Source of the DNA: a virus
Lineage: Duplodnaviria; Heunggongvirae; Uroviricota; Caudoviricetes
Direction: 5' to 3' (one strand)
IMG/VR virus record: IMGVR_UViG_3300038968_000013
Span: 49,317 to 113,316 of that record
DNA length: 64,000 bases
A program made the translations under genes and the position numbers. The first letter of the stretch is position 1. The number at the start of each line of letters is the position of its first letter. A model generated the notes under the pieces. That model was not told where the DNA came from, ran no database searches, and saw only the letters and a list, made by a program, of their open reading frames with translations. Of this stretch, positions 40,799-62,777 are shown one piece after another.

Positions 40799-40872
40799 CG
40801 GAACCGAGGGGGATCGAACCCCTAACCTTTCCCGTGACAGGGGAGCGTTCTAGCCAATTGAACTACGGCTCC
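40799..40872 (-). tRNA. tRNA-Asp (GTC)
   Basis: Manual fold. Acceptor GGAGCCG/CGGTTCC, D-arm GTTC..GAAC, anticodon loop CTGTCAC and T-arm AGGGG TTCGATC CCCCT. Confidence 0.6.
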
Positions 40873-40877
40873 GTGAG

Positions 40878-40951
40878 AGTCGATACCCGGATTCGAACCG
40901 GGACCGCTAGTTTGGAAGACTAGCATGCTAACCGTTGAACACTACATCGAC
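40878..40951 (-). tRNA. tRNA-Gly (TCC), probable
   Basis: Manual fold. Acceptor GTCGATG/TATCGAC, anticodon stem CTAGT/ACTAG with loop CTTCCAA, and T-arm CCCGG TTCGAAT CCGGG. The D-stem is weak, and the 5' end overlaps the ORF 40928..41182. Confidence 0.45.
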
Positions 40952-54582: not shown

Positions 54583-54711
54583 TTACTGTCCTCCCATCCC
54601 TACGATGATGTACTTGAAGTAAGCCGCGCCCGAGATAAACCCGAGCGCGACTCCCACACCCACCGCCACCCCAAACACCACCGACCGAAAAAACGTCTTT
54701 ACGTTGTCCAT
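54583..54711 (-). CDS. small membrane peptide
   Basis: MDNVKTFFRSVVFGVAVGVGVALGFISGAAYFKYIIVGMGG. The start overlaps the SPFH gene stop codon. Confidence 0.3.
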   Translation of the reverse strand: MDNVKTFFRSVVFGVAVGVGVALGFISGAAYFKYIIVGMGGQ

Positions 54712-55796
54712 TACTGTGCCTGCTTCAAGTCGACCATGGGCATCGCGGGACCGGAGACGAGGGAGAGTTTTCCATCCCACTTCCGAATACGTTCCCACTC
54801 GACCAGTGTCGGCGTGATTGACTTGGCGAGGATTTCGTTTGCTTGTGCCTCGGCCTTGGCGCGGATCAGCTGTGCATCGGCTTGTCCTTGAGCGAGCGCC
54901 TTAGCCTGGTCACCCTCGGCTTGCTTGGCGCGCACCATGTTCTCGGCTTGGATTGCAGCCTGTGTCGCGGCGATAGCCTGGTTGACTGCCTGCATGACCT
55001 TATCGTCGACCCGCAGTCCCGAGACGAAGGCGAACGATTCCACCTTGATACCGTCCGGTGCCATACGAGTCTGCAGCTCCTTGAGCACGTTGGCCTCTAG
55101 CTCGCGGCGCCCTTCTCCGAGAATGAGCATCGTGTCCATCGTCTGGCCATAGTGGGCCACGATGTCACGAATCTGAGAGCGCATGTATGTGTGTGTGATG
55201 CGTCCGATGTCCTGGCGGAACTTCACGAAGAGCTGCGGAATCTTCTCCGGTTCCAGCGAGTAGGCCAGGAAGACGTCGGCGTTCACGAGGCTCGACTGCT
55301 TCGAGTTGAACGTGATGCTCTCGTCGCCGGGGGACTCTGGGGTATCGTCCTTGGTGAATACCTGCTGCTGCAGGAAGATCGGGAACAGATGAATCTCGGT
55401 CTTGAAGGGGTTGTACACCTGAATGCCAGTAACGGCAGTCGCGTTAGCAACGCCCTTATCTGAGCCCCAGAGGTTCACCTTGACGCCTACGTAGCCAGGC
55501 GGCACCCGTGTATATCCACAGCCGCTACCTGTCAGCAGAAACGCGGACAGCGCCAGCGGCAGCAGCACGGCGGGGAACGATACCTTACCCACGTTCTCGG
55601 TGAGCCAGGCGAATCCCATGTAGAGTAGCGTCGCGGCCAGCATGAAATCGGCCAGACACACGAGCAGCCCAAAGATAGCGAGGAACGTGCTCTTCGCGGA
55701 CCACATTTCGATCCCGAGCGTCCACACCCCCACGACCACGAGTAGCGCGCAGATGACGCTACCTACGACTTGAACGAGAAACCGCAATCCACTCAT
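54711..55796 (-). CDS. SPFH/band-7 (flotillin/HflK-like) membrane protein
   Basis: N-terminal TM helices followed by an SPFH-like core, then an Ala/Gln-rich coiled-coil tail (AQAENMVRAKQAEGDQAKALAQGQADAQLIRAKAEAQA). Confidence 0.65.
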   Translation of the reverse strand: MSGLRFLVQVVGSVICALLVVVGVWTLGIEMWSAKSTFLAIFGLLVCLADFMLAATLLYMGFAWLTENVGKVSFPAVLLPLALSAFLLTGSGCGYTRVPPGYVGVKVNLWGSDKGVANATAVTGIQVYNPFKTEIHLFPIFLQQQVFTKDDTPESPGDESITFNSKQSSLVNADVFLAYSLEPEKIPQLFVKFRQDIGRITHTYMRSQIRDIVAHYGQTMDTMLILGEGRRELEANVLKELQTRMAPDGIKVESFAFVSGLRVDDKVMQAVNQAIAATQAAIQAENMVRAKQAEGDQAKALAQGQADAQLIRAKAEAQANEILAKSITPTLVEWERIRKWDGKLSLVSGPAMPMVDLKQAQ

Positions 55797-55822
55797 ACCA
55801 TCCTCCCCTTATTGTACTCGGT

Positions 55823-57544
55823 TTACTTAGCCTGCATTCGATACCGCAACTCCGACTCGTGCTGACTTCTCAGCGCGGTAAGGACTTGCGCAGAGTCGAT
55901 TGGAGTGTATAGCTCCCGAACCATGGCGACTCTTTCGTCCCAGCTGCGACTACGAAACGCCTCTGGCTTTTCGTACCATTCTTCGGGCACGTCGAAATCG
56001 CTAGCATTCGCGAGTACCGTATCGATAGTGTTTTTGATTGAACGTCCGGTGAAGTGTTCACTTTGCTTCCTGAAATCCTCGCACTCCATCCCGAGGTCGA
56101 GCCACGTATCCGCCATGTCAAAAGCGGGAGCCTTGTGCTTCGTCTGCGCCCTACGTGGACGGGACAGTGGCTCGTATCTCGTTGATGGAATCTTGACGAT
56201 ACCCTGTTTGGTGGCTTTGCGCAAGAGGAGCGCGATCAGATCCGCGTAATCCTCTGGCGTCTCCGGTCCCATGACTGGAAAGCGCGCGACGAATCGCTGA
56301 CGGAGAGCCGCGTCGGTGGCGGTCGGAGCATTCGTGGCTGCAATTGTGATGTATGAGCCCGAATAGGCTGAACCGACACCAGAGAAGAAATCCATCAGCC
56401 CCTTGAGAATGTCACGATCGCCGCCACCCATGCCGGGAGAGGAACGATCGCCACCCGCGAAGAGCAGATCCACGTCGTCGAGACACATGATCGAGAGACG
56501 ACCCGGATCTCTCAGGTCGTTCAGTAGATCATTTAGAAGCGTAGCTGTTTTGCCATACCATTCCGACTTCACGTCCGATGCACCCAGCGACTTGAAGTAG
56601 GTTGGCATACCGATTTGGTCAGCGCGACGCTGTAGCAGCGTCATCGCCATCCTCATGATACTGCTTTTACCAGTGCCCGGAGGTCCGTCCAGGAGGATGC
56701 TTTCGAGAATACCCCCCATTTCACAAAATGGATTCTTCCCGAGCTGTGGGTCGTAGCACGCGAGACGATCCATTTGCCGCCTGAGCTGTAGTACCGCAGC
56801 GTCGTTGCCGACGATCTCTTCCGGTTGAACCGGGACAAAGGAAACACTTGTAGCATCTTTTGCTTTCTCTACCGTTGTTCCCGTGATGGTGAACTTCTGG
56901 TATCGGAAGGTGACTTGATCGAGAGACGATCCGAGTGTCTTATGAGCACGGGCTTTAATCCGAGCTTGTTCAGCAACCCAGCTCCAGTAGTCGCGAGAAA
57001 TACTAAGCTCGTCGCCAACGATATGGACGATAGGATTGCCGTGCTGATCTTTTGCTTGAATGGCATCGATGTACCGTGCAAGGCAAAGCCCGAGGTCGCC
57101 GTCGATAGATCCACGGATATCTAGCTTCAGGATGCTTGTGTCGAGAGTTGCGAATTGACCTTCCCGACGTCGCAGCAGGCGAGCCGCTTCCACTTGAATG
57201 AAGCTCGCTGCTACGAACGTCGAGTAGGCAGAAATGAATGCTGCGCGTTCTTGAATCTCCGGAGAGATAACGCCACCGCGTGCTTGAAGCTCTTTGGCAG
57301 CCTCGCGCTGCCCGGTGCGTTCCATCAGATGGTCCACGAACCAGTAGTAGAAGCACACGGCTTGCCGAATGAGGAAAACGAGAGCCATTTCCTCAGGCAG
57401 GACTCGCCAGGTCTCTTGTGGCGAGAGGTCTTTCAGAATGTCTTCGAGGTCGCGTTCACCGTCGATCTTGGAGAGCGCCCGTTCGGCGGTCGCAATCCAC
57501 TTATCGAGGTCTTCAGCCTTGATGGGGAGGGCTTCGCGTTCCAT
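55823..57544 (-). CDS. AAA+ ATPase (classic-clade AAA domain) with ~330-aa N-terminal domain of unknown function
   Basis: Walker A LLDGPPGTGKSS, Walker B IMCLDDVDLL and sensor/Arg-finger region IAATNAPTATDAALRQRF. Confidence 0.7.
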   Translation of the reverse strand: MEREALPIKAEDLDKWIATAERALSKIDGERDLEDILKDLSPQETWRVLPEEMALVFLIRQAVCFYYWFVDHLMERTGQREAAKELQARGGVISPEIQERAAFISAYSTFVAASFIQVEAARLLRRREGQFATLDTSILKLDIRGSIDGDLGLCLARYIDAIQAKDQHGNPIVHIVGDELSISRDYWSWVAEQARIKARAHKTLGSSLDQVTFRYQKFTITGTTVEKAKDATSVSFVPVQPEEIVGNDAAVLQLRRQMDRLACYDPQLGKNPFCEMGGILESILLDGPPGTGKSSIMRMAMTLLQRRADQIGMPTYFKSLGASDVKSEWYGKTATLLNDLLNDLRDPGRLSIMCLDDVDLLFAGGDRSSPGMGGGDRDILKGLMDFFSGVGSAYSGSYITIAATNAPTATDAALRQRFVARFPVMGPETPEDYADLIALLLRKATKQGIVKIPSTRYEPLSRPRRAQTKHKAPAFDMADTWLDLGMECEDFRKQSEHFTGRSIKNTIDTVLANASDFDVPEEWYEKPEAFRSRSWDERVAMVRELYTPIDSAQVLTALRSQHESELRYRMQAK

Positions 57545-57663
57545 TAGTACGCCAGGAAGTAGTACACGTTAAGACTGCACGAGCCGAGAAGTAGGAGAAG
57601 CGAGACGCCCGAGACCCACATGAGGGTCGTAAGCGCATCCCCGATGCCACGTCCGTCCATTAC
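57544..57663 (-). CDS. possible 39-aa membrane peptide
   Basis: MDGRGIGDALTTLMWVSGVSLLLLLGSCSLNVYYFLAY sits between the coiled-coil and AAA genes. The upstream part of the track ORF is antisense shadow. Confidence 0.2.
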   Translation of the reverse strand, partial: VMDGRGIGDALTTLMWVSGVSLLLLLGSCSLNVYYFLAY

Positions 57664-58772
57664 TCGTGCCGTACGCCTTCGTGAGCCTCGCGCTCGACGT
57701 CCGCAAACTCTTTGAGGAAGTCGTTGACGTGACCGGTAAGCTGTTGCAGCAGCTCCCGCGAACGCTCTGGGCTGATTGCCGCGTGCTTGAGGCGCTGTGC
57801 CGCGATTTCGAGTGCCGCTCCTGCCACCGCCACGTTGTGATCCGTGATCACTTCCACGGAACGGTTGAGCGCAGGATCGACCGCCTGGTAGCGTTCCAGC
57901 TGAGCGCGCGCACGCACTGCCGTCATGGAGTTTTCGAGCACGACGGCCAGGTTCTGCCACTTCTCCAGCAGGTTCCGACGCATGCCGTGAACCGACTCGA
58001 TGGAGAGCGCAGCTGCATCCTTCGACTTCTGCAGCGTGGGGATGGCGCGCTGAGCCTCGGTGACGATGGTAATGAATTCCATCACGTCGAGACGCACCTT
58101 CTCCAGGTCACGCTTCAGAGCTTCGAATTCGGCTTCCTTCGCGGGCCGATCCTTCTGCTCGATGGTTCCGGACTTCAGCTCCAGGTCGAGCGCATTGTAG
58201 CGCCCTTCCAGCTCTGCTCTGCGCTGTTCCGCTTGGAGTTGACGCGGGGTCGCTTCCTTGAGCTTGGACAATACGGTATCGATGCTCTTCCCGTACGACT
58301 CGACGTTGGACACGTACTCCGCTTCTACCGTCCCCAACTTCTCGATCGTCTCCTGCACGAAGGTCTCGACTTCGCGACACGCCTCTTCGACCGAGGCAGT
58401 GTCGAGCCGCGAAACACGGAGCGCCTGAGCCTTGTTCATCGCCTTGTCGGAGAACTGCCCGAGGAACGCCAGGGTCTTTTCCTTGACGCCCCGGAATTCG
58501 CCCGACCGCGCGATTTGCAGCCCGATGGCCTCGATGCGCTGAATCACGTCAGAGCACAACGCCCGAAGCTCCTGCTCCATGGCGGCGCCCTTCTCGTGTG
58601 CGTCGGCCAACTTCTGGCTACCGTGCGTGACGCGTTGCTTGCCCTGCTTGACCTCGGTGGCTTGCCGTTCCTGCTTGATGTCCAGGTCCGAAATCACCGT
58701 GTCGTTCTGCAGCGATTCGCGGATAGCTGCCCGCCCGGTACGCTGCGCCGTTTGTTCCCTCACTTGCGCCAC
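57660..58772 (-). CDS. all-helical coiled-coil protein (TelA/YaaN-like?)
   Basis: 370 aa. GTG start with a GGAGGTGG RBS. Long heptad-like Glu/Arg/Leu-rich segments. The family assignment is tentative. Confidence 0.45.
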   Translation of the reverse strand: MAQVREQTAQRTGRAAIRESLQNDTVISDLDIKQERQATEVKQGKQRVTHGSQKLADAHEKGAAMEQELRALCSDVIQRIEAIGLQIARSGEFRGVKEKTLAFLGQFSDKAMNKAQALRVSRLDTASVEEACREVETFVQETIEKLGTVEAEYVSNVESYGKSIDTVLSKLKEATPRQLQAEQRRAELEGRYNALDLELKSGTIEQKDRPAKEAEFEALKRDLEKVRLDVMEFITIVTEAQRAIPTLQKSKDAAALSIESVHGMRRNLLEKWQNLAVVLENSMTAVRARAQLERYQAVDPALNRSVEVITDHNVAVAGAALEIAAQRLKHAAISPERSRELLQQLTGHVNDFLKEFADVEREAHEGVRHE

Positions 58773-58799
58773 TGTGCCACCTCCGTTTGATAGTATGCG

Positions 58800-58925
58800 A
58801 ACATGTTGTTTGTGACCATCTTTTTACCGGTGCTCTAACACTGAGCTACTTCCACATGTGGAAGGCTGGACTTTAACCAGCGACCCCCGGTCCTTCATGA
58901 GAACAGTCAACAGTCGGCTCGCAAG
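58800..58925 (-). ncRNA. Y RNA-like permuted tRNA mimic, E1
   Basis: Reading 5' to 3' on the minus strand, in order: leader GCGAGCCGAC, anticodon-stem 3' strand ACCGG, variable loop GGGTC, T-arm GCTGG TTAAAGT CCAGC, acceptor 3' strand CTTCCAC-A, a 1-nt link, acceptor 5' strand GTGGAAG, TA, D-arm GCTC AGTGTTA GAGC, A, and anticodon-stem 5' strand CCGGT. The 7-bp acceptor and 5-bp anticodon stems are perfectly complementary between the two halves. Confidence 0.5.
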
Positions 58926-59109
58926 CCGTTAACATTGGTCCCGATGCCGTGGACACAACCCCCGGCTCTCCCGCACCAACGCGGTTGTTCTGTGTACATG
59001 TCGGGCTACACCGAATCGTGCTGCCCCGGCCGGGTCAACAGCAGAGATTCATCTGGCAGACATTTAACCAACACGGTCTAGTTTCTGAACTACATCGGGA
59101 AAAGAAAAA

Positions 59110-59246
59110 GCGAGCATGTAGCTTCTTTGAGGAGTGTATTTTTGACGGTTGCTCTACCAACTGAGCTACATTCTTGGTTGCCCTTGAATGGCTGGATTCG
59201 AACCAGCGACCCACTGTGTGTGATAACCCTCAAACGTTCGGCTCGC
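59110..59246 (-). ncRNA. Y RNA-like permuted tRNA mimic, E2
   Basis: Same order as E1. T-arm GCTGG TTCGAAT CCAGC, acceptor halves CATTCAA / AAGAATG (5 of 7 bp) joined by a GGGCAACC loop, and D-arm GCTC AGTTGGTA GAGC. Leader GCGAGC pairs with trailer GCTCGC. Confidence 0.5.
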
Positions 59247-59328
59247 GAAAAATGACCCCGAAGTCATGCTAATTATGCATGAATACTCAGCCTCGATGAG
59301 CATCGGGGAGAGAAGCTGTTTCAAAAAG

Positions 59329-59411
59329 TACCGGTGACAGGATTCGAACCTGCAAGAGTTTCCCCTACTAGTTCCTAAGACTAGCGTGTACGCCAATGCC
59401 ACCTCACCGGC
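59329..59411 (-). tRNA. tRNA-Leu (TAG), class II
   Basis: Manual fold. Acceptor GCCGGTG/CACCGGT, anticodon arm CTAGT CTTAGGA ACTAG, a 13-nt variable arm and T-arm GCAGG TTCGAAT CCTGT. Collinear with E. coli tRNA-Leu. Confidence 0.6.
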
Positions 59412-59421
59412 AAAAAGAAAG

Positions 59422-59531
59422 TGGGTAGGGGTGGAGTTGAACCACCAAGTAAGCTCTCAAGTAGGCATACTCAACTAGTATTTTCAGCCCACCATCCAGC
59501 TATTCTCTGTACAACAAATGTACACCTACCC
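59422..59531 (-). ncRNA. 110-nt tRNA-like RNA (perfect 7-bp acceptor + T-arm, ~35-nt extra internal sequence)
   Basis: 5' GGGTAGG ... GGTGG TTCAACT CCACC CCTACCC A 3'. The D-arm is a 4-6 bp palindrome (G)TGTACA..TGTACA. No canonical anticodon arm could be placed by hand. Confidence 0.35.
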
Positions 59532-59595
59532 ATAGTCTCGGACAACGGATTGCGGTCTCACTGTACCGCGCTTAATCCCCGAGCTTAAAACGGTT

Positions 59596-59650
59596 GGGGC
59601 CAGGCTGGATTCGAACCAGCAGAGAGGGATGGCAAATCCCCCACGAACTG
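59596..59650 (-). ncRNA. tRNA-like 3' module (anticodon-like hairpin GGGGA TTTGCCA TCCCT + T-arm GCTGG TTCGAAT CCAGC + CTGGCCC)
   Basis: No matching 5' acceptor strand either upstream or downstream. It shares a GCTGGCAAAA submotif with E4. Confidence 0.3.
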
Positions 59651-60100
59651 AGCGGATCAAAGCGTGCAAGCTTTTGCCAGCTCAGCGACACTACCCGGTC
59701 TAGACTTCCTCAGCCCGCCGCCATTGCCAACCATGCGACTTACTGACCCCAGAAAACTAACCACGAACATAAAAGTGAAGAGCGAGCTGTCAGCTGGGTA
59801 CCCTTGATCTACTCGTACCGCCCCATTGATGCGAAGGCTTATCAGCTTCGTAGAGGGTATCACCCCAGGTGACTTGTCATCCATCTTACACCCCGGATGC
59901 ATAGGTGTGCTGCCTTCATCGGTGGACCTGACCTTTTCACTACTCAGTTAAACGTTGTTTCGAGGGCGCCTTGTCCGGTCTCCCCCTGGCTTTTTTATCA
60001 AAGTAGAGAACACTCTTCGATTGGCTCGTGGTTCTTGTCCCAGCAATCCTACCCCTCAGTGTGCTAATGAGTCTCAGATCTCAGCCGGGACCAAAACTAT

Positions 60101-60235
60101 ATACCCTGAACGTATGGGCGTCGATGCGGTTTAACGCTCTGCCATTGAGCTAACTCTGCAGGTTAGTGCAGAGCCTGGGACTCGAACCCAGATCTTTCGA
60201 TTATCATTCGAGAACACACCAACAGTCGGCTCAGG
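60101..60235 (-). ncRNA. Y RNA-like permuted tRNA mimic, E3
   Basis: Leader GTTTCACCCTGAGCCGACTGTTG..., T-arm CTGGG TTCGAGT CCCAG, acceptor 3' strand GCTCTGC-A, loop CTAACCT, acceptor 5' strand GCAGAGT, TA, D-arm GCTC AATGGCA GAGC. Head ACCCTGA pairs with tail TCAGGGT. Confidence 0.45.
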
Positions 60236-60284
60236 GTGAAACTTAGATTGTCAAAGAACAAGGTGGAGAACGAGTTACAGAAAG

Positions 60285-60365
60285 CAGGGATTAGTGGGAT
60301 TTGAACCCACATCAGCCGGTTTTTGCCAGCTTCGTCATCCAGTAGCGATAACCCTGCCTAGTTCG
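60285..60365 (-). ncRNA. tRNA-like module E4 (shared leader + T-arm GTGGG TTCAAAT CCCAC)
   Basis: Leader GAGAGCCGAAC matches those of E1-E3. The tRNA-like features are incomplete. Confidence 0.3.
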
Positions 60366-60380
60366 GCTCTCCGGATCTTT

Positions 60381-61043
60381 TTACAGCGCCACTTCGCGTG
60401 GCGTGTGAACTGACGGCATCGTAGCACCGATGGATGGCTTTGTCAAATCCTGATGCTTTGCCATCCAATCCTGCACGAACCAGAGCTGTCCACAGCCGCC
60501 GCCGATGTCGTCCTGTCCCGCAGGATCGAAGCAGCGCACCGAGTACCCGATCGTCTTCATCATGTCCATGAAGTTGGTCGCGAGGGTCCGCTGACGATGA
60601 TTCGCCGCAGCCACGCTCTCGTCCCGCTCACAGATGACGCTGATCGTTGCTTCCCACGTATCCGGGTGAAACAAGCGGCGCAGGTTGTTGACGTCCTGCC
60701 ACGATACGTTACCCGGATGCGCGCAGTAGTTGAAGAACGGGCGGCGCCCGGTGACGTTGTAGAAGCGATTGCCTTGGTACGCGATCTGCGCGAGGTTCAG
60801 CTTTGCCTTGAACGGAATGAGCTGATCGCGCTTCTCGTCGGTGCTCTCATGAACCGAGAATTGCAGCCCGATGGTAGGAATCTTCCGCGCCGCTTCCATG
60901 ATCGGGTCGTAATCGACGTCCGGAGCACTCGTGGAAATGAGCAGCGAGAAGTTCGGGTAGAGGAAGTACAGGTACTCCATCGCCCTGATCAGTTCCTTTT
61001 GGTTGAGCATTTGTTTACACCAATTGTAAGTAAGATAACCCAC
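60381..61043 (-). CDS. hypothetical protein downstream of rsr
   Basis: 220-aa ORF. No motif recognised. Confidence 0.4.
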   Translation of the reverse strand: MGYLTYNWCKQMLNQKELIRAMEYLYFLYPNFSLLISTSAPDVDYDPIMEAARKIPTIGLQFSVHESTDEKRDQLIPFKAKLNLAQIAYQGNRFYNVTGRRPFFNYCAHPGNVSWQDVNNLRRLFHPDTWEATISVICERDESVAAANHRQRTLATNFMDMMKTIGYSVRCFDPAGQDDIGGGCGQLWFVQDWMAKHQDLTKPSIGATMPSVHTPREVAL

Positions 61044-61160
61044 TACCCGGTCGGCTCACCGTATGCCGTTATGTCTGAGACGCGAACATGTAGACGCCTA
61101 GGGCTGTTTTCATTTAGGCAATGGTAACCCTAGAGCTATCGGCTCGCGCGTATCTTGTCG

Positions 61161-62777
61161 TTACAGACCCTTCGCGAACTCCGAGATTAGCTGCGGGGTG
61201 GCAGTGTCGAAGCCCACCACGTCGAGCTGACCCGGATCGTTTGGATCTGCGATGGTGAAGTTGGTCGCAGTCATGCCGACCGTTACCATCTTGCAGTCCT
61301 TCTTGTTCATGCGCGTACGGAACTGGCGCAGAGCAGTGCTCGCGTGCGTGTTCCCGGCCCAAACCTCGTTGTCCGTGATGATCACGAAGCAATCGACGTC
61401 GAGGCTATGCTGCATCGCGTACTTCATTGCGACCGCACCGTCCGTACCACCGAAGTTGGCGTCCTGAGCAGCGCGCGCAGCATCACGGAGCGACATGCCC
61501 GGATGGATACGAAGATCCTTGAAGTGATGCGCGAATCCACCGATGAAATAGTTGCTCTCGGTGTTTGCGATCACGAGCGCCATTGCTGCTGCGCCGATGC
61601 ACGGAGTCAGACCCGGCACGCCCGCGATGCTGCCGCCCGCCATCGAGCCCGAGACGTCGACTCCCAGGAAGAAGTTCTTCCCGGTCGGCTCGACCGCCTT
61701 GAACGCGAGGTAGAACGCCTCGTCGAGGGCCTTGACCACCTTCTGCGAAGGTGTCCAGGTCTTGGACATGTCGCGGGCACCACGCCCCGCCGCGTACGTC
61801 AGGTTCGCAGCCAGGATCTGAATCGGATGCACACGGCCCTTGATGATCGCGTCCTGGTTGCCCAGAAGCTTCACGATGTCCTTCTCGGCCTGCGACAGCG
61901 GCTTCAGCAGTCCGACACGCGTCATGGTCGCCAGGTTGCGGATGACCATGGTGATCCCGCCCGTCGACAGCAGCGCCTCCCAAACCTCTGGAGCGTTCAG
62001 CAGCTGCGTCGGGATGATCTCGCGCGGCAGGTTGAAATCGGTGATCAGCTGCACCGCAGTCTTCACGTCGGCCTTGGTAGCCCCCGTGATTGCCTGCATG
62101 ACACGCGCACCCTCGATCATGTCCGGACCCTTGGTGAAGTCTTCCTTCTTCAGGGCGAACTCGAAGACAGCACGGCGCATAGCATCGTCGGTCTTCGGAT
62201 GCGTCAGACGCAGGAGGTCACGATGCGACCAACCGTCACGCTGCTGGTACTTCACGACCTGCAGTGCCAGCTTGTCGACCGGCTTGGCAAGGTACCAATC
62301 ACGCACCGCGTTCTTCAGCGCACGACCCCAGCCACGATACTGGCGGGCGAAGGCGATGAAATGGAACAGATGCGTTCCAGTACGCGCGACCTTGTGCAGA
62401 TTGGCGAGCGCGTAACGCTTCACGTCGTCGCTACCCTCGGAGGCAGCGTATGCCAGTGCCAGCAGCGCCGGATCGTTCTTCGGCGCGCGACCGTCCTGCG
62501 AAATCTGGACGATCTCGTTGACGAGACGCATGCCATCCTCCAGGAGGCACGCCTTGACGGCGTTCAGGCTCTCCTTGGTGTGCTGGCGCTGGTCAGCGTA
62601 GTACGTCCCACCCTCGGTGCCGAGGATCAGGAAGCGACGCAGATGCATCCAATGCCCGGTGGCAAAAACGTAACCACCCGCATGGTTCTTCACCTGGCGC
62701 GCGTCCAGCGGCTCCGACTCCGGAACCGGCTTCGAAATCTCGTTCAGTAGATAGCTTCCCTTGCGTCCCATCGTCAT
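61161..62777 (-). CDS. rsr: Ro60/Rsr ortholog (TROVE domain + C-terminal vWA/MIDAS domain)
   Basis: GGYVFATGHWMHLRRFLILGTEGGTYYADQRQ...ISQDGRAPKNDPALLALAYAAS aligns with the N-terminus of the Ro sixty-related protein (..RFLILGSEGGTYY..RAPKND). GVDVSGSM is a MIDAS motif. Confidence 0.85.
   Translation of the reverse strand: MTMGRKGSYLLNEISKPVPESEPLDARQVKNHAGGYVFATGHWMHLRRFLILGTEGGTYYADQRQHTKESLNAVKACLLEDGMRLVNEIVQISQDGRAPKNDPALLALAYAASEGSDDVKRYALANLHKVARTGTHLFHFIAFARQYRGWGRALKNAVRDWYLAKPVDKLALQVVKYQQRDGWSHRDLLRLTHPKTDDAMRRAVFEFALKKEDFTKGPDMIEGARVMQAITGATKADVKTAVQLITDFNLPREIIPTQLLNAPEVWEALLSTGGITMVIRNLATMTRVGLLKPLSQAEKDIVKLLGNQDAIIKGRVHPIQILAANLTYAAGRGARDMSKTWTPSQKVVKALDEAFYLAFKAVEPTGKNFFLGVDVSGSMAGGSIAGVPGLTPCIGAAAMALVIANTESNYFIGGFAHHFKDLRIHPGMSLRDAARAAQDANFGGTDGAVAMKYAMQHSLDVDCFVIITDNEVWAGNTHASTALRQFRTRMNKKDCKMVTVGMTATNFTIADPNDPGQLDVVGFDTATPQLISEFAKGL

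What the first reader, a model, noticed from the sequence alone, without database searches (positions are those of the whole stretch)
59110..59246. E2: second permuted tRNA-like module with a GNRA-capped acceptor hairpin and leader/trailer pairing
It has the same 3'-half/5'-half order as E1 and the same variable loop (GGGTC), T-stem (GCTGG/CCAGC) and D-stem, so it is a paralog. The acceptor halves are joined by GG-GCAA-CC. The leader GCGAGC and trailer GCTCGC are complementary and enclose the whole module. Chaining the acceptor helix, the tRNA-like core and this enclosing leader/trailer helix gives the Y-RNA-like architecture.
Basis: seen in the sequence. Interest (0 to 1): 0.7.

Follow-up and report, generated by a model that had tools for sequence, protein, structure and literature searches.

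The report
Phage Y RNA with tRNA-like domain
E2 is a YrlA-type Y RNA, a small non-coding RNA with a tRNA-shaped domain that partners the Ro60/Rsr protein encoded 1.9 kb upstream on the same strand of this phage genome; it is real and well supported, but it belongs to an RNA family described in 2014.

Summary
The leader GCGAGC (59246-59241) pairs with the trailer GCUCGC (59115-59110). They enclose a 7-bp second helix, a 5-bp anticodon-stem-like helix, the variable loop GGGUC, a T arm, a GCAA-capped acceptor hairpin and a D arm.

The window is a tailed phage. E2 lies 1.9 kb downstream of a Ro60/Rsr gene (TROVE + vWA) on the same strand. It carries the published Rsr-binding motif GNCGAAN0-1G (GCCGAACG).

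Rfam YrlA matches E2 at 35.9 bits (E 1e-5), below the family's 69-bit cut-off. None of 19 other phage rsr loci reaches that cut-off either.

A covariance model built from E2 found 59 relatives in 83 sources, 82 of them rsr loci. All 59 are on the rsr strand. A structure-free MAFFT/RNAalifold alignment recovers the leader/trailer helix, T arm, acceptor hairpin and D arm with many compensatory changes (93.9% paired against 33-43% in slid controls). A family model built without this lineage scores E2 at 134.7 bits.

E2 is one unit of a roughly seven-module Y-RNA array interleaved with tRNA-Leu. Interest is low to moderate.

The parts
59110..59246 (-). E2: complete YrlA-type Y RNA module, from P1 5' strand to P1 3' strand
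   Evidence: Rfam YrlA 35.9 bits, E 1e-5. Family model R2 134.7 bits. MFE architecture.
59241..59246 (-). P1 5' strand (leader GCGAGC), which pairs with 59110-59115
   Evidence: Read directly from the sequence. The P1 columns are 99.3% paired, with 5 of 6 pairs changed on both sides, in the structure-free alignment A7.
59235..59242 (-). GCCGAACG, matching the published Rsr/Ro60-binding motif GNCGAAN0-1G; it overlaps the last 2 nt of P1
   Evidence: Sequence. Motif definition in PMC4201824. Column profile G48/49, C47/49, G45/49 among relatives.
59228..59234 (-). P2 5' strand UUUGAGG, which pairs with 59126-59132 (CCUCAAA)
   Evidence: MFE fold. 95.7% paired, with all 7 pairs changed on both sides, in the model-fitted alignment A6.
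59222..59227 (-). GUUAUC motif at the top of P2, conserved across the family (the paper's YUAY)
   Evidence: Column profile: U45/48, U38/48, A36/49, U35/48, C36/46.
59213..59217 (-). P3 5' strand ACAGU (tRNA positions 39-43), which pairs with 59145-59149 (ACCGU) with a central A.C mismatch
   Evidence: The columns are anchored by the adjacent conserved arms in A7. Examples of covariation: ACCGG/CCGGU, UCUGG/CCAGA, ACUAA/UUAGU.
59208..59212 (-). Variable loop GGGUC (tRNA positions 44-48; C48 can form the Levitt pair with G15)
   Evidence: Read from the sequence and mapped onto standard tRNA numbering.
59191..59207 (-). T arm GCUGG-UUCGAAU-CCAGC
   Evidence: 100% paired in A7.
59169..59190 (-). 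Acceptor-stem-like (AS) hairpin closed by a GCAA tetraloop (59178-59181)
   Evidence: The L004 ortholog rebuilds this helix with a different sequence (CAUGUGUAG/CUACAUGUG). All 7 pairs show compensatory changes in A7.
59151..59166 (-). D arm GCUC-AGUUGGUA-GAGC, preceded by U8 A9 at 59168-59167
   Evidence: 100% paired in A7.
59110..59115 (-). P1 3' strand (trailer GCUCGC), followed by a U-rich tail at 59097-59109
   Evidence: Sequence. The family 3' consensus is C-W-U-G-Y-Y-C.
61161..62777 (-). Ro60/Rsr gene, the presumed protein partner
   Evidence: Pfam TROVE 2.2e-42 and vWA_Ro60 8.5e-49. More than 7,900 homologs.
58797..58922 (-). E1: paralogous YrlA-type module (P1 GCGAGC/GUUCGC)
   Evidence: Rfam YrlA 40.4 bits, E 5e-7. 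R2 85.4 bits.
60103..60237 (-). E3 (my label): YrlA-type module with a long variable stem-loop (P1 ACCCUGAGC/GUUCAGGGU)
   Evidence: Rfam YrlA 26.5 bits. R2 63.6 bits. MFE z = -3.79.
59329..59411 (-). Genuine tRNA-Leu(UAG) embedded in the array, 82 nt upstream of E2
   Evidence: ARAGORN. Rfam tRNA 45.1 bits.

Best explanation
E2 is a YrlA-class Y RNA encoded by a tailed phage.

Proposed mechanism:
1. It is probably transcribed from the minus strand, with the rsr gene or from a promoter inside the array, as part of a polycistronic run of Y-RNA modules and tRNA-Leu. It would then be cut out by tRNA- and RNA-processing nucleases.
2. Its 5' and 3' ends pair (P1). Together with the adjacent GCCGAACG motif they form the module that docks on the outer surface of the ring-shaped phage Ro60/Rsr protein.
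3. The distal part folds into an L-shaped tRNA mimic (T arm, closed acceptor hairpin, D arm, 5-nt variable loop, anticodon-stem-like P3). This acts as the effector-binding module. It tethers or gates a partner at the Ro60 cavity, so that structured RNAs are remodelled or degraded during infection. By analogy the partner is the host exoribonuclease PNPase, or an unidentified factor that recognises tRNA shape.

What is shown here: the sequence features, the structure supported by covariation, the family membership and the linkage to rsr. What is inferred from characterised relatives: expression, Rsr binding, the partner and the biological role.
For: 1. Linkage to rsr. Ro60/Rsr (TROVE + vWA_Ro60) lies 1.9 kb upstream on the same strand. 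YrlA RNAs are defined as lying within 4 kb of rsr on the same strand (PMC4201824).
2. Motif. GCCGAACG fits GNCGAAN0-1G at the expected 5' position.
3. Rfam. RF02553 YrlA matches full length at E 1e-5, and also matches E1 and E3.
4. Search with the E2 model. R1 over 642 kb (83 sources, 82 of them rsr loci; both strands) gave 59 hits, all on the rsr strand and next to rsr. In the 64-kb window the only hits lie in the rsr-downstream array.
5. Covariation. On the model-fitted alignment, 96% of cells are paired against about 41% in slid controls. On the structure-free MAFFT alignment, RNAalifold recovers P1, T, AS and D. My structure including P3 gives 93.9% paired against 33-43%, with a covariation score of 0.718 against 0.14 or less.
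6. Ortholog. The copy in L004 (Rsr 89% identical) is 87-91% identical, yet it rebuilds the AS helix with a different sequence while keeping P1, P3, T and D.
7. Leave-lineage-out model. Family model R2, built from 30 sequences of other phage and metagenome loci, scores E2 at 134.7 bits, the top hit.
8. Tertiary contacts. All the nucleotides needed are present: U8-A14, G15-C48, G18/G19 with U55/C56, U54-A58, G46-G22-C13, A9-A23-U12 and A26.G44 (sequence mapped; criteria).
9. Precedent. Thermus phage phiLo Ro60 binds two phage Y-like RNAs and assembles with host PNPase (PMC12135203). Caulobacter phage CcrColossus carries an 82% identical core 0.9 kb upstream of its TROVE gene.
Against: - E2 scores 35.9 bits against the Rfam YrlA gathering score of 69, so it would not be annotated automatically. 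None of 19 other phage rsr loci reaches that score either, so the threshold appears too strict for phage members.
- The MFE energy alone is not significant (z = -1.89).
- There are no expression, processing or binding data for this RNA.
- The A expected to pair in the metazoan-type bulged Ro helix faces another A in E2 (CAUG instead of the family's CUUG).
- R2's training sequences were recruited with an E2-derived model, so that test is not fully independent.
- The effector (PNPase or other) is unknown even for the characterised YrlA RNAs.
Confidence: 0.88

Rival explanations
1. E2 is a tRNA-shaped RNA that acts independently of Ro60. It could be a decoy or sponge for host enzymes or defence nucleases that bind tRNAs. 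Alternatively it could be a processing 'punctuation' signal, so that RNase P, RNase Z or RNase E cut the polycistronic transcript, with the Ro60 linkage incidental.
For: - The array is interleaved with a genuine tRNA-Leu. In L004 that tRNA ends 6 nt before E2's P1.
- Many phage rsr loci sit inside tRNA clusters.
- M. smegmatis YrlA is cut by RNase P (PMC4201824).
Against: - All 59 hits are on the rsr strand next to rsr.
- The GNCGAA motif, the GUUAUC motif and the P1 3' strand are conserved outside the tRNA-like part. A Ro-independent role does not explain this.
- E2 has no anticodon loop to attract anticodon nucleases.
- Its acceptor hairpin is 5 bp plus two A.A mismatches rather than the 7 bp associated with RNase P cleavage.
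Confidence: 0.07
2. E2 is non-functional debris. Candidates are the junction of two decayed tandem tRNA genes, an attP-type tRNA fragment, or a dying paralog of E1.
For: - The junction of the tandem tRNA-Gly and tRNA-Asp genes at 40844-40908 gives a local hit to the family model, because it has the same T arm - acceptor/acceptor - D arm order.
- E1, E2 and E3 are paralogs.
Against: - Compensatory changes preserve every helix across 25-55 relatives.
- The L004 ortholog shows a rebuilt AS helix with conserved cores.
- E2 is the best-scoring match to the family consensus.
- The enclosing P1/P2 helices and the Ro motif are not features of tRNA gene junctions.
Confidence: 0.03
3. E2 is a true permuted tRNA gene, or half of a split tRNA, that is matured into a decoding tRNA, as in Cyanidioschyzon merolae. 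Alternatively it is a permuted (two-piece) tmRNA.
For: - The 3'-half / 5'-half order of the arms matches a permuted tRNA gene.
- The acceptor halves are joined by a short loop.
- A leader/trailer helix could mimic a processing motif.
Against: - There is no anticodon loop: P3 opens into 8- and 12-nt joining strands and then P2 and P1.
- The acceptor end is closed by GCAA, with no discriminator or CCA.
- ARAGORN calls neither a tRNA nor a tmRNA here.
- Rfam tRNA and tmRNA families do not match E2 at E <= 10.
- There is no tag reading frame and no pseudoknots.
- The enclosing helices carry Y-RNA motifs.
Confidence: 0.01

Closest known systems
YrlA (Y RNA-like A; Rfam RF02553) of Salmonella Typhimurium, Mycobacterium smegmatis and others (Chen et al. 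2014, PMC4201824; structure: Wang et al. 2018, 10.1101/312249)
   Same: - Same strand as rsr and within 4 kb of it.
- 5' GNCGAAN0-1G motif.
- The order variable loop - T arm - closed acceptor hairpin - D arm, with near-invariant GGUUCGAnUCC and GUAGCUCA..GGUAGAGC.
- Nucleotides for the tRNA tertiary contacts.
- 5' and 3' ends paired, three nested helices, and no free CCA end.
   Different: - E2 is below the Rfam gathering score (35.9 against 69 bits).
- In this phage family both strands of the Ro-binding helix are conserved (GRGC-C-GR / U-G-Y-Y-C). The paper states that only the 5' strand is recognisable in the Salmonella and M. smegmatis RNAs.
- The host genome is an uncultured tailed phage.
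- The locus has no rtcBA/RtcR context.
YrlA-like RNAs of Caulobacter phage CcrColossus (upstream of TROVE gp139; one overlaps a feature annotated 'terminator' in GenBank)
   Same: - The core is 82% identical to E2 over 74 nt.
- It has the same GGGUC variable loop, the same A.C mismatch in the middle of P3 and the same GCAA-capped acceptor hairpin.
- There are five tandem modules next to a tRNA.
   Different: - The CcrColossus modules use a different terminal helix and Ro motif (GGGUGGCGUAG ... GUUCCCCCACC).
- They lie upstream rather than downstream of the Ro60 gene.
Yrl1/Yrl2 of Thermus phage phiLo with phage Ro60 (PMC12135203, 2025)
   Same: - Phage-encoded Ro60 with adjacent Y-like RNAs that carry the CGAA motif in a stem-bulge-stem.
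- Shown to bind phage Ro60 and to form complexes with host PNPase. This is the best functional precedent.
   Different: The search of that paper found no mention of a tRNA-like domain (0 occurrences of 'tRNA-like'). E2 carries a complete tRNA mimic.
Deinococcus radiodurans Yrn1 (RF01053), metazoan Y RNAs and nematode sbRNAs
   Same: - Terminal helix with a bulged C next to G-A (GGUC-C-GA / UUGACC, compared with GAGC-C-GA / U-GCUC here).
- UUAUC-type motif above the helix.
- The role of tethering Ro60 to an effector (the RYPER complex with PNPase in D. radiodurans).
   Different: - Metazoan Y RNAs have no tRNA-like domain.
- In Yrn1 the T and D elements are in the opposite orientation.
- No Rfam match of E2 to these families at E <= 10.
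Permuted tRNA genes (Cyanidioschyzon merolae) and permuted tmRNA genes
   Same: The 3' half (T arm) is encoded upstream of the 5' half (D arm).
   Different: E2 lacks an anticodon loop, a free acceptor end, a tag ORF and pseudoknots. It is not called by ARAGORN or by the tRNA/tmRNA covariance models.

Membership tests
YrlA-class Y RNA (Chen 2014; Rfam RF02553) | Encoded within about 4 kb of a Ro60/Rsr (TROVE) gene, on the same strand | tested here: met
   The rsr gene is at 61161-62777 (minus strand; TROVE 2e-42, vWA_Ro60 8e-49). E2 starts at 59246 (minus strand), 1.9 kb downstream.
YrlA-class Y RNA (Chen 2014; Rfam RF02553) | GNCGAAN0-1G motif near the 5' end (proposed Rsr contact) | tested here: met
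   GCCGAACG at 59242-59235. The motif is defined and is conserved in relatives.
YrlA-class Y RNA (Chen 2014; Rfam RF02553) | Nearly invariant T-like and D-like stem-loops separated by a variable acceptor-like (AS) stem-loop, in the order V-T-AS-D | tested here: met
   T and D are 100% paired, and AS is 93% paired with compensatory changes in all 7 pairs.
YrlA-class Y RNA (Chen 2014; Rfam RF02553) | Nucleotides for the tRNA tertiary interactions, including the Levitt pair (15:48) | tested here: met
   G15-C48, U8-A14, G18/G19 with U55/C56, U54-A58, G46-G22-C13 and A9-A23-U12 are all present by sequence mapping. The 3D fold itself was not tested.
YrlA-class Y RNA (Chen 2014; Rfam RF02553) | 5' and 3' ends pair to form the stem that encloses the tRNA-like domain | tested here: met
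   P1 is 6 bp and P2 is 7 bp. P1 is 99.3% paired with 5 of 6 pairs covarying on the structure-free alignment. P2 is 95.7% paired on the model-fitted alignment.
YrlA-class Y RNA (Chen 2014; Rfam RF02553) | Score at or above the Rfam gathering threshold (69 bits) | tested here: not met
   E2 scores 35.9 bits, E 1e-5. No YrlA match reaches the threshold in 19 other phage rsr loci that carry clear homologs. This is a curation cut-off, not a biological feature.
YrlA-class Y RNA (Chen 2014; Rfam RF02553) | Bound by Rsr in vivo; carries tRNA-type modifications (pseudouridine 55, dihydrouridine) | not testable with these tools
   Requires RIP/EMSA and modification mapping.
Genuine or permuted tRNA gene | Anticodon stem closed by a 7-nt anticodon loop | tested here: not met
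   P3 opens into joining strands and then P2 and P1.
Genuine or permuted tRNA gene | Acceptor stem with a free or processable 3' end (discriminator, CCA); called by tRNA detectors | tested here: not met
   The acceptor hairpin is closed by GCAA. ARAGORN makes no call, and Rfam tRNA has no match over E2 at E <= 10.
tmRNA (including permuted) | Tag reading frame and pseudoknots; detection by ARAGORN or Rfam | tested here: not met
   no tmRNA call in the window.
Metazoan-type Y RNA / sbRNA | Bulged terminal helix GGUC-C-GA / UUGACC, plus a match to Rfam Y_RNA or sbRNA models | tested here: inconclusive
   A helix with a possible bulged C and a G.U pair is present (GAGC-C-GA / U-GCUC), but the next pair is A.A. 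No Rfam Y_RNA or sbRNA match for E2. Simple modules in other phage loci do reach the gathering score of sbRNA family RF01656.

The most novel reading that the evidence does not exclude
E2 may be one adaptor in a programmable set. The 2.4-kb stretch downstream of the phage rsr gene holds about seven Y-RNA modules. All share the Ro-docking stem (GAGCCGA ... CAYGYUC), but their distal domains differ:
- two class-I-like tRNA mimics (E1, E2);
- one class-II-like tRNA mimic (E3);
- one non-permuted tRNA-like domain (M3);
- one plain hairpin (M1);
- one module with an unassigned interior of about 210 nt (M5).
They are interleaved with tRNA-Leu and two unclassifiable cloverleaf-like RNAs.

On this reading, the phage loads one Ro60 ring with a panel of adaptors that each recruit a different host partner. 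The E2 subtype (GCAA-capped acceptor hairpin plus a conserved A.C mismatch in P3, shared with the distant Caulobacter phage CcrColossus) would recognise a specific, still unknown tRNA-binding factor rather than PNPase.
Probability: 0.3. Interest if true: 0.5.

Novelty: new member of a known kind. Interest (0 to 1): 0.25.

Why it matters
For the finding itself the value is mostly in annotation. E2 is a clean, near-consensus example of a YrlA Y RNA in an uncultured phage, and Rfam's gathering threshold misses it. That threshold also missed every homolog in the 19 other phage rsr loci tested, so a phage-trained model would recover a substantial hidden population.

The alignment also shows that in phage Y RNAs both strands of the Ro-binding helix are conserved and covary, as in animal Y RNAs.

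The wider locus could be a useful experimental system for two open questions: what the tRNA-like domain of Y RNAs binds, and why phages carry Ro60. It offers seven modules with different distal domains on one transcript-sized stretch.

Tried and rejected
- The search for related loci with the single Rsr protein found no relatives in the viral or genome collections. An alignment of Rsr homologs was needed.
- blastn of the region against phage genomes returned only tRNA-Leu matches and the CcrColossus core.
- An exact-pattern search for E2-lineage orthologs in IMG/VR found only CcrColossus itself.
- The metagenome pattern search gave 13 loci that share only the tRNA-like core and not E2's P1/P2. 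Lineage-level orthologs are therefore limited to L004 and identical contigs.
- A home-made regex-plus-pairing scan for Y modules was too unspecific: it gave about a dozen chance hits per strand. I dropped it in favour of covariance models and manual reading.
- MAFFT alignments did not align the 3' strand of P2. Support for P2 therefore comes only from the model-fitted alignment and from single-sequence folds.
- MFE z-scores for E1 and E2 are unremarkable and were not used as evidence.
- The permuted-tRNA, tmRNA and attP-remnant readings were considered and rejected, as set out under the rival explanations.

Full report
**1. What is there**

The finding lies on the minus strand. Read 5' to 3' from 59246 to 59110, the elements are:
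- leader GCGAGC (59246-59241), which is P1;
- CGAACG;
- UUUGAGG, the P2 5' strand (59234-59228);
- GUUAUC (59227-59222);
- ACAGU, the P3 5' strand (59217-59213);
- variable loop GGGUC (59212-59208);
- T arm GCUGG-UUCGAAU-CCAGC (59207-59191);
- acceptor-like hairpin CAUUC-AA-GG-GCAA-CC-AA-GAAUG (59190-59169);
- U-A;
- D arm GCUC-AGUUGGUA-GAGC (59166-59151);
- A;
- ACCGU, the P3 3' strand (59149-59145, with a central A.C mismatch);
- a 12-nt joiner;
- CCUCAAA, the P2 3' strand (59132-59126);
- a 10-nt joiner ending in CAU;
- trailer GCUCGC (59115-59110);
- a U-rich tail.

The minimum-free-energy fold gives the same architecture, although its energy is unremarkable (z = -1.89).

Two paralogs fold the same way. 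E1 (58922-58797) is 69% identical to E2. A module I call E3 (60237-60103) is 59% identical.

**2. Context**

The window is a tailed phage. PHROGs finds a portal protein, a large terminase and a major head protein.

E2 sits in a non-coding stretch 1.9 kb downstream of a 538-aa Ro60/Rsr ortholog at 61161-62777, on the same strand (Pfam TROVE 2.2e-42, vWA_Ro60 8.5e-49).

ARAGORN and Rfam at gathering thresholds find only a genuine tRNA-Leu(UAG) at 59329-59411 in this stretch. With E-value reporting, Rfam's YrlA model (RF02553, 'Y RNA-like') matches three places full length, all below its 69-bit gathering score:

| Module | Bits | E-value |
|---|---|---|
| E1 | 40.4 | 5e-7 |
| E2 | 35.9 | 1e-5 |
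| E3 | 26.5 | 5e-3 |

**3. Comparison with the published definition**

Chen et al. 2014 (PMC4201824) define YrlA RNAs by these features:
- location within 4 kb of rsr, on the same strand;
- a 5' GNCGAAN0-1G motif thought to contact Rsr;
- nearly invariant T- and D-like stem-loops separated by a variable acceptor-like stem-loop, preceded by a variable region;
- the potential for the tRNA tertiary contacts, including the Levitt pair.

They reported such RNAs in 254 bacteria and 22 phages. E2 meets each criterion:
- GCCGAACG at 59242-59235 fits the motif.
- Mapping E2 onto tRNA numbering gives U8-A14, G15-C48, G18/G19 with U55/C56, U54-A58, G46-G22-C13, A9-A23-U12 and A26.G44.

The crystal structure of the Salmonella YrlA domain shows a close tRNA mimic that lacks a free CCA end. 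Its acceptor, anticodon-like and variable regions vary in size between species (10.1101/312249). E2's differences fall inside that range.

**4.

Collecting homologs. The Rsr protein has thousands of homologs. Identical contigs (L001-L003) add no variation. A contig with an 89% identical Rsr (L004) carries an E2 ortholog that is 87-91% identical. In that ortholog P1, P3, T and D are unchanged, but the acceptor hairpin is rebuilt with a different sequence (CAUGUGUAG-GCAAU-CUACAUGUG). This is a textbook compensated helix. An alignment of Rsr proteins then retrieved 80 IMG/VR loci out of 372 viral contigs that encode a Ro60 relative.

Search with an E2 model. A covariance model of E2 (R1) searched over 642 kb on both strands gave 59 matches at E <= 1. 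All are on the rsr strand and adjacent to rsr. In the window itself the only hits lie in the rsr-downstream stretch.

Covariation on the model-fitted alignment:
- 96.0% of cells form standard pairs, against about 41% when partners are slid by 1-3 columns.
- 35 of 36 pairs show changes on both sides.
- This alignment leans towards the structure it was fitted to.

Covariation on a structure-free alignment. I also ran MAFFT plus RNAalifold on 25 full-length hits. This recovers an 8-bp leader/trailer helix, the T arm, a 7-bp acceptor hairpin and the D arm, and 18 of 24 predicted pairs show compensatory changes. Counting my own structure (P1, P3, T, AS, D) on that alignment gives:
- 93.9% of cells paired, against 33-43% for the slid controls;
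- a covariation score of 0.718, against 0.14 or less;
- P1 at 99.3% paired, with 5 of 6 pairs changed on both sides.

P2 could not be tested this way, because MAFFT does not align its 3' strand.

Leave-lineage-out model. A family model built only from 30 sequences of other loci (R2) gives these scores:

| Module | Bits |
|---|---|
| E2 | 134.7 (the best hit) |
| E1 | 85.4 |
| E3 | 63.6 |

The training sequences were recruited with R1, so this is supportive rather than fully independent.

**5. Family features seen in the alignment**

Across 55 distinct relatives:
- The 5' side reads G-R-G-C-C-G-R-A (G 48/49, C 47/49 and G 45/49 at the core).
- The 3' side reads C-W-U-G-Y-Y-C.
- A GUUAUC motif follows P2.

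This can be drawn as GRGC/GYYC with a bulged C and a G.U pair, like the GGUC-C-GA / UUGACC Ro-binding helix of animal Y RNAs. In E2 the next position is A.A rather than A-U.

Chen et al. state that only the 5' strand is recognisable in the Salmonella and M. smegmatis RNAs. In the phage family both strands are conserved and the distal P1 pairs covary.

None of 19 phage rsr loci with clear homologs yields a YrlA match at the Rfam gathering score. The sub-threshold score of E2 therefore reflects the model's seed and not a defect of E2.

**6. Closest sequence relative**

The closest named relative is in Caulobacter phage CcrColossus.
- A 74-nt core is 82% identical to E2. It has the same GGGUC loop, the same A.C mismatch in P3 and a GCAA-capped acceptor hairpin.
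- It lies 0.9 kb upstream of the TROVE gene gp139 on the same strand, next to tRNA-Gln, and overlaps a feature annotated as a terminator.
- CcrColossus has five tandem modules with a different terminal motif.
- It is one of the phages named in the literature as carrying Y-like RNAs.

**7. Mechanism**

Shown here:
- sequence motifs;
- a structure supported by covariation;
- linkage to rsr;
- family membership.

Inferred from characterised relatives:
- P1 plus GCCGAA docks on the outer rim of the Ro60 ring (X. laevis and D. radiodurans data cited).
- The tRNA-like domain is the effector-binding module.
- The ribonucleoprotein tethers or gates an exoribonuclease such as PNPase. Precedents are RYPER in D. 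radiodurans and Salmonella, and phage phiLo Ro60 with its Yrl RNAs and host PNPase (PMC12135203).

Processing from a polycistron that includes a tRNA has precedent in D. radiodurans (Yrn2-tRNA-Asp-Yrn1). It fits the fact that in L004 tRNA-Leu ends 6 nt before E2's P1.

RNase P cleavage with CCA addition, as in M. smegmatis, seems unlikely for E2. Its acceptor hairpin has two A.A mismatches where a 7-bp stem would be needed.

**8. Rivals**

- A decoding permuted tRNA or a tmRNA is excluded by the lack of an anticodon loop, a free acceptor end, a tag ORF and pseudoknots, and by negative ARAGORN and Rfam calls.
- Non-functional tRNA debris is contradicted by the compensatory changes and by E2's near-consensus score. 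The junction of the tandem tRNA-Gly and tRNA-Asp genes (40844-40908) does give a local model hit, which shows how such an arrangement can arise.
- A Ro-independent tRNA-decoy or processing role cannot be excluded. It does not explain the conserved Ro motifs or the strict strand linkage.

**9. Verdict**

E2 is a new member of the known YrlA Y-RNA family in an uncultured phage.

The more interesting material is the surrounding array of about seven Y modules with different distal domains, two unclassified cloverleaf-like RNAs and an RlmN-like ORF fragment. These were noticed in passing and only partly followed up.

Noticed in passing
window 58797-61149, minus strand: The whole stretch downstream of rsr is an array of Y-RNA-like modules. 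Each is bracketed by (N)nGAGCCGA... and ...CAYGYUC(N)n, and the flanks pair and covary.
- M1 61148-61081: plain hairpin; R1 E 0.005.
- M2 from 61060: 5' half only.
- M3 60372-60265.
- E3 60237-60103.
- M5 60031-59761.
- E2.
- E1.
L004 has about eight such modules and CcrColossus has five.
   Followed up: partly
window 60265-60372, minus strand (M3): This Y-type module (P1 GGAGAGC/GUUCUCC, GAGCCGAAC, GGGUUAUC) has a tRNA-like interior in the normal, non-permuted order. P2 acts as the acceptor stem, and the T arm is GUGGG-UUCAAAU-CCCAC. That is reminiscent of D. radiodurans Yrn1. Scores: weak Rfam tRNA 21.6 bits; Deinococcus_Y_RNA 16.7 bits, E 8.8 (not significant); R2 24.3 bits.
   Followed up: partly
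window 59761-60031, minus strand (M5): A 271-nt module with Y-type P1 (CCACGAGC/GUUCGUGG), a variant motif GAGCCAAUCGAAG and P2 (GAAGAG/CUCUUC). It encloses about 210 nt with no Rfam match and no counterpart in L004. The fold is not distinctive (z = -1.0).
   Followed up: partly
window 59422-59531 and about 59595-59716, minus strand: Two cloverleaf-like RNAs that neither ARAGORN nor Rfam tRNA calls.
- The first has a 7-bp acceptor stem GGGUAGG/CCUACCC, a T arm GGUGG-UUCAACU-CCACC and a central arm of about 60 nt. Its MFE z is -3.75 and it is 95% conserved in L004.
- The second has a T arm CUGG-UUCGAAU-CCAG and long extra arms.
Their function is unknown.
   Followed up: partly
window 60381-61043, minus strand: An ORF of 209-220 aa sits inside the array, where L004 has the 3' half of module M2. 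It has no Pfam or PHROG hit. It shows weak similarity to the C-terminal half of the radical-SAM RNA methyltransferases RlmN and Cfr (PDB 6fz6_A E 0.017; 9p0p_A E 0.02) and ends in ...DDIGGGCGQLW. The matches cover only the C-terminal half of RlmN/Cfr (chain residues about 196-341), so the ORF appears to lack the N-terminal half of those enzymes.
   Followed up: partly
window 40844-40908, minus strand: The junction of the tandem tRNA-Gly and tRNA-Asp genes gives a local hit to the YrlA family model (28.8 bits). T arm + acceptor 3' strand + spacer + acceptor 5' strand + D arm reproduces the 'permuted' order. This suggests a simple evolutionary route to YrlA from a tandem tRNA pair.
   Followed up: no
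L012-L084 (19 IMG/VR rsr loci): No YrlA match reaches the Rfam gathering score in any of these loci, although all carry homologs detectable with R1. Simple Y modules in L025 and L027 reach the gathering score of the nematode sbRNA family RF01656. Many loci sit inside large tRNA clusters, and L048 has a permuted tmRNA nearby.
   Followed up: partly
E2 59147/59215 and 59178-59181; L087 2995-3072; L019, L079: A non-canonical A.C (or C.A) pair occupies the middle of the anticodon-stem-like helix P3 in E2, its L004 ortholog, CcrColossus, L019 and L079. The GCAA-capped acceptor hairpin is shared by E2, L004 and CcrColossus. These may mark a subtype with its own partner, or correspond to the kink seen in the YrlA crystal structure.
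   Followed up: partly
window 60418-60446, minus strand: A sigma-70-like promoter match (TTGACA-17-TACGAT with an upstream TG, 10 of 12) lies at the 3' end of the inserted ORF, just upstream of M3. It could drive transcription of the distal array. It is a consensus match only: the region has 3 such sites against 1.8 expected.
   Followed up: no
window 54711-58772, minus strand; L005 11624-12862: The genes downstream of the array are a 370-aa protein with no family hit, a 573-aa AAA ATPase and an SPFH/Band_7 protein. An SPFH/Band_7 gene also follows rsr in the related phage contig L005. This may be a conserved module with Ro60.
   Followed up: no
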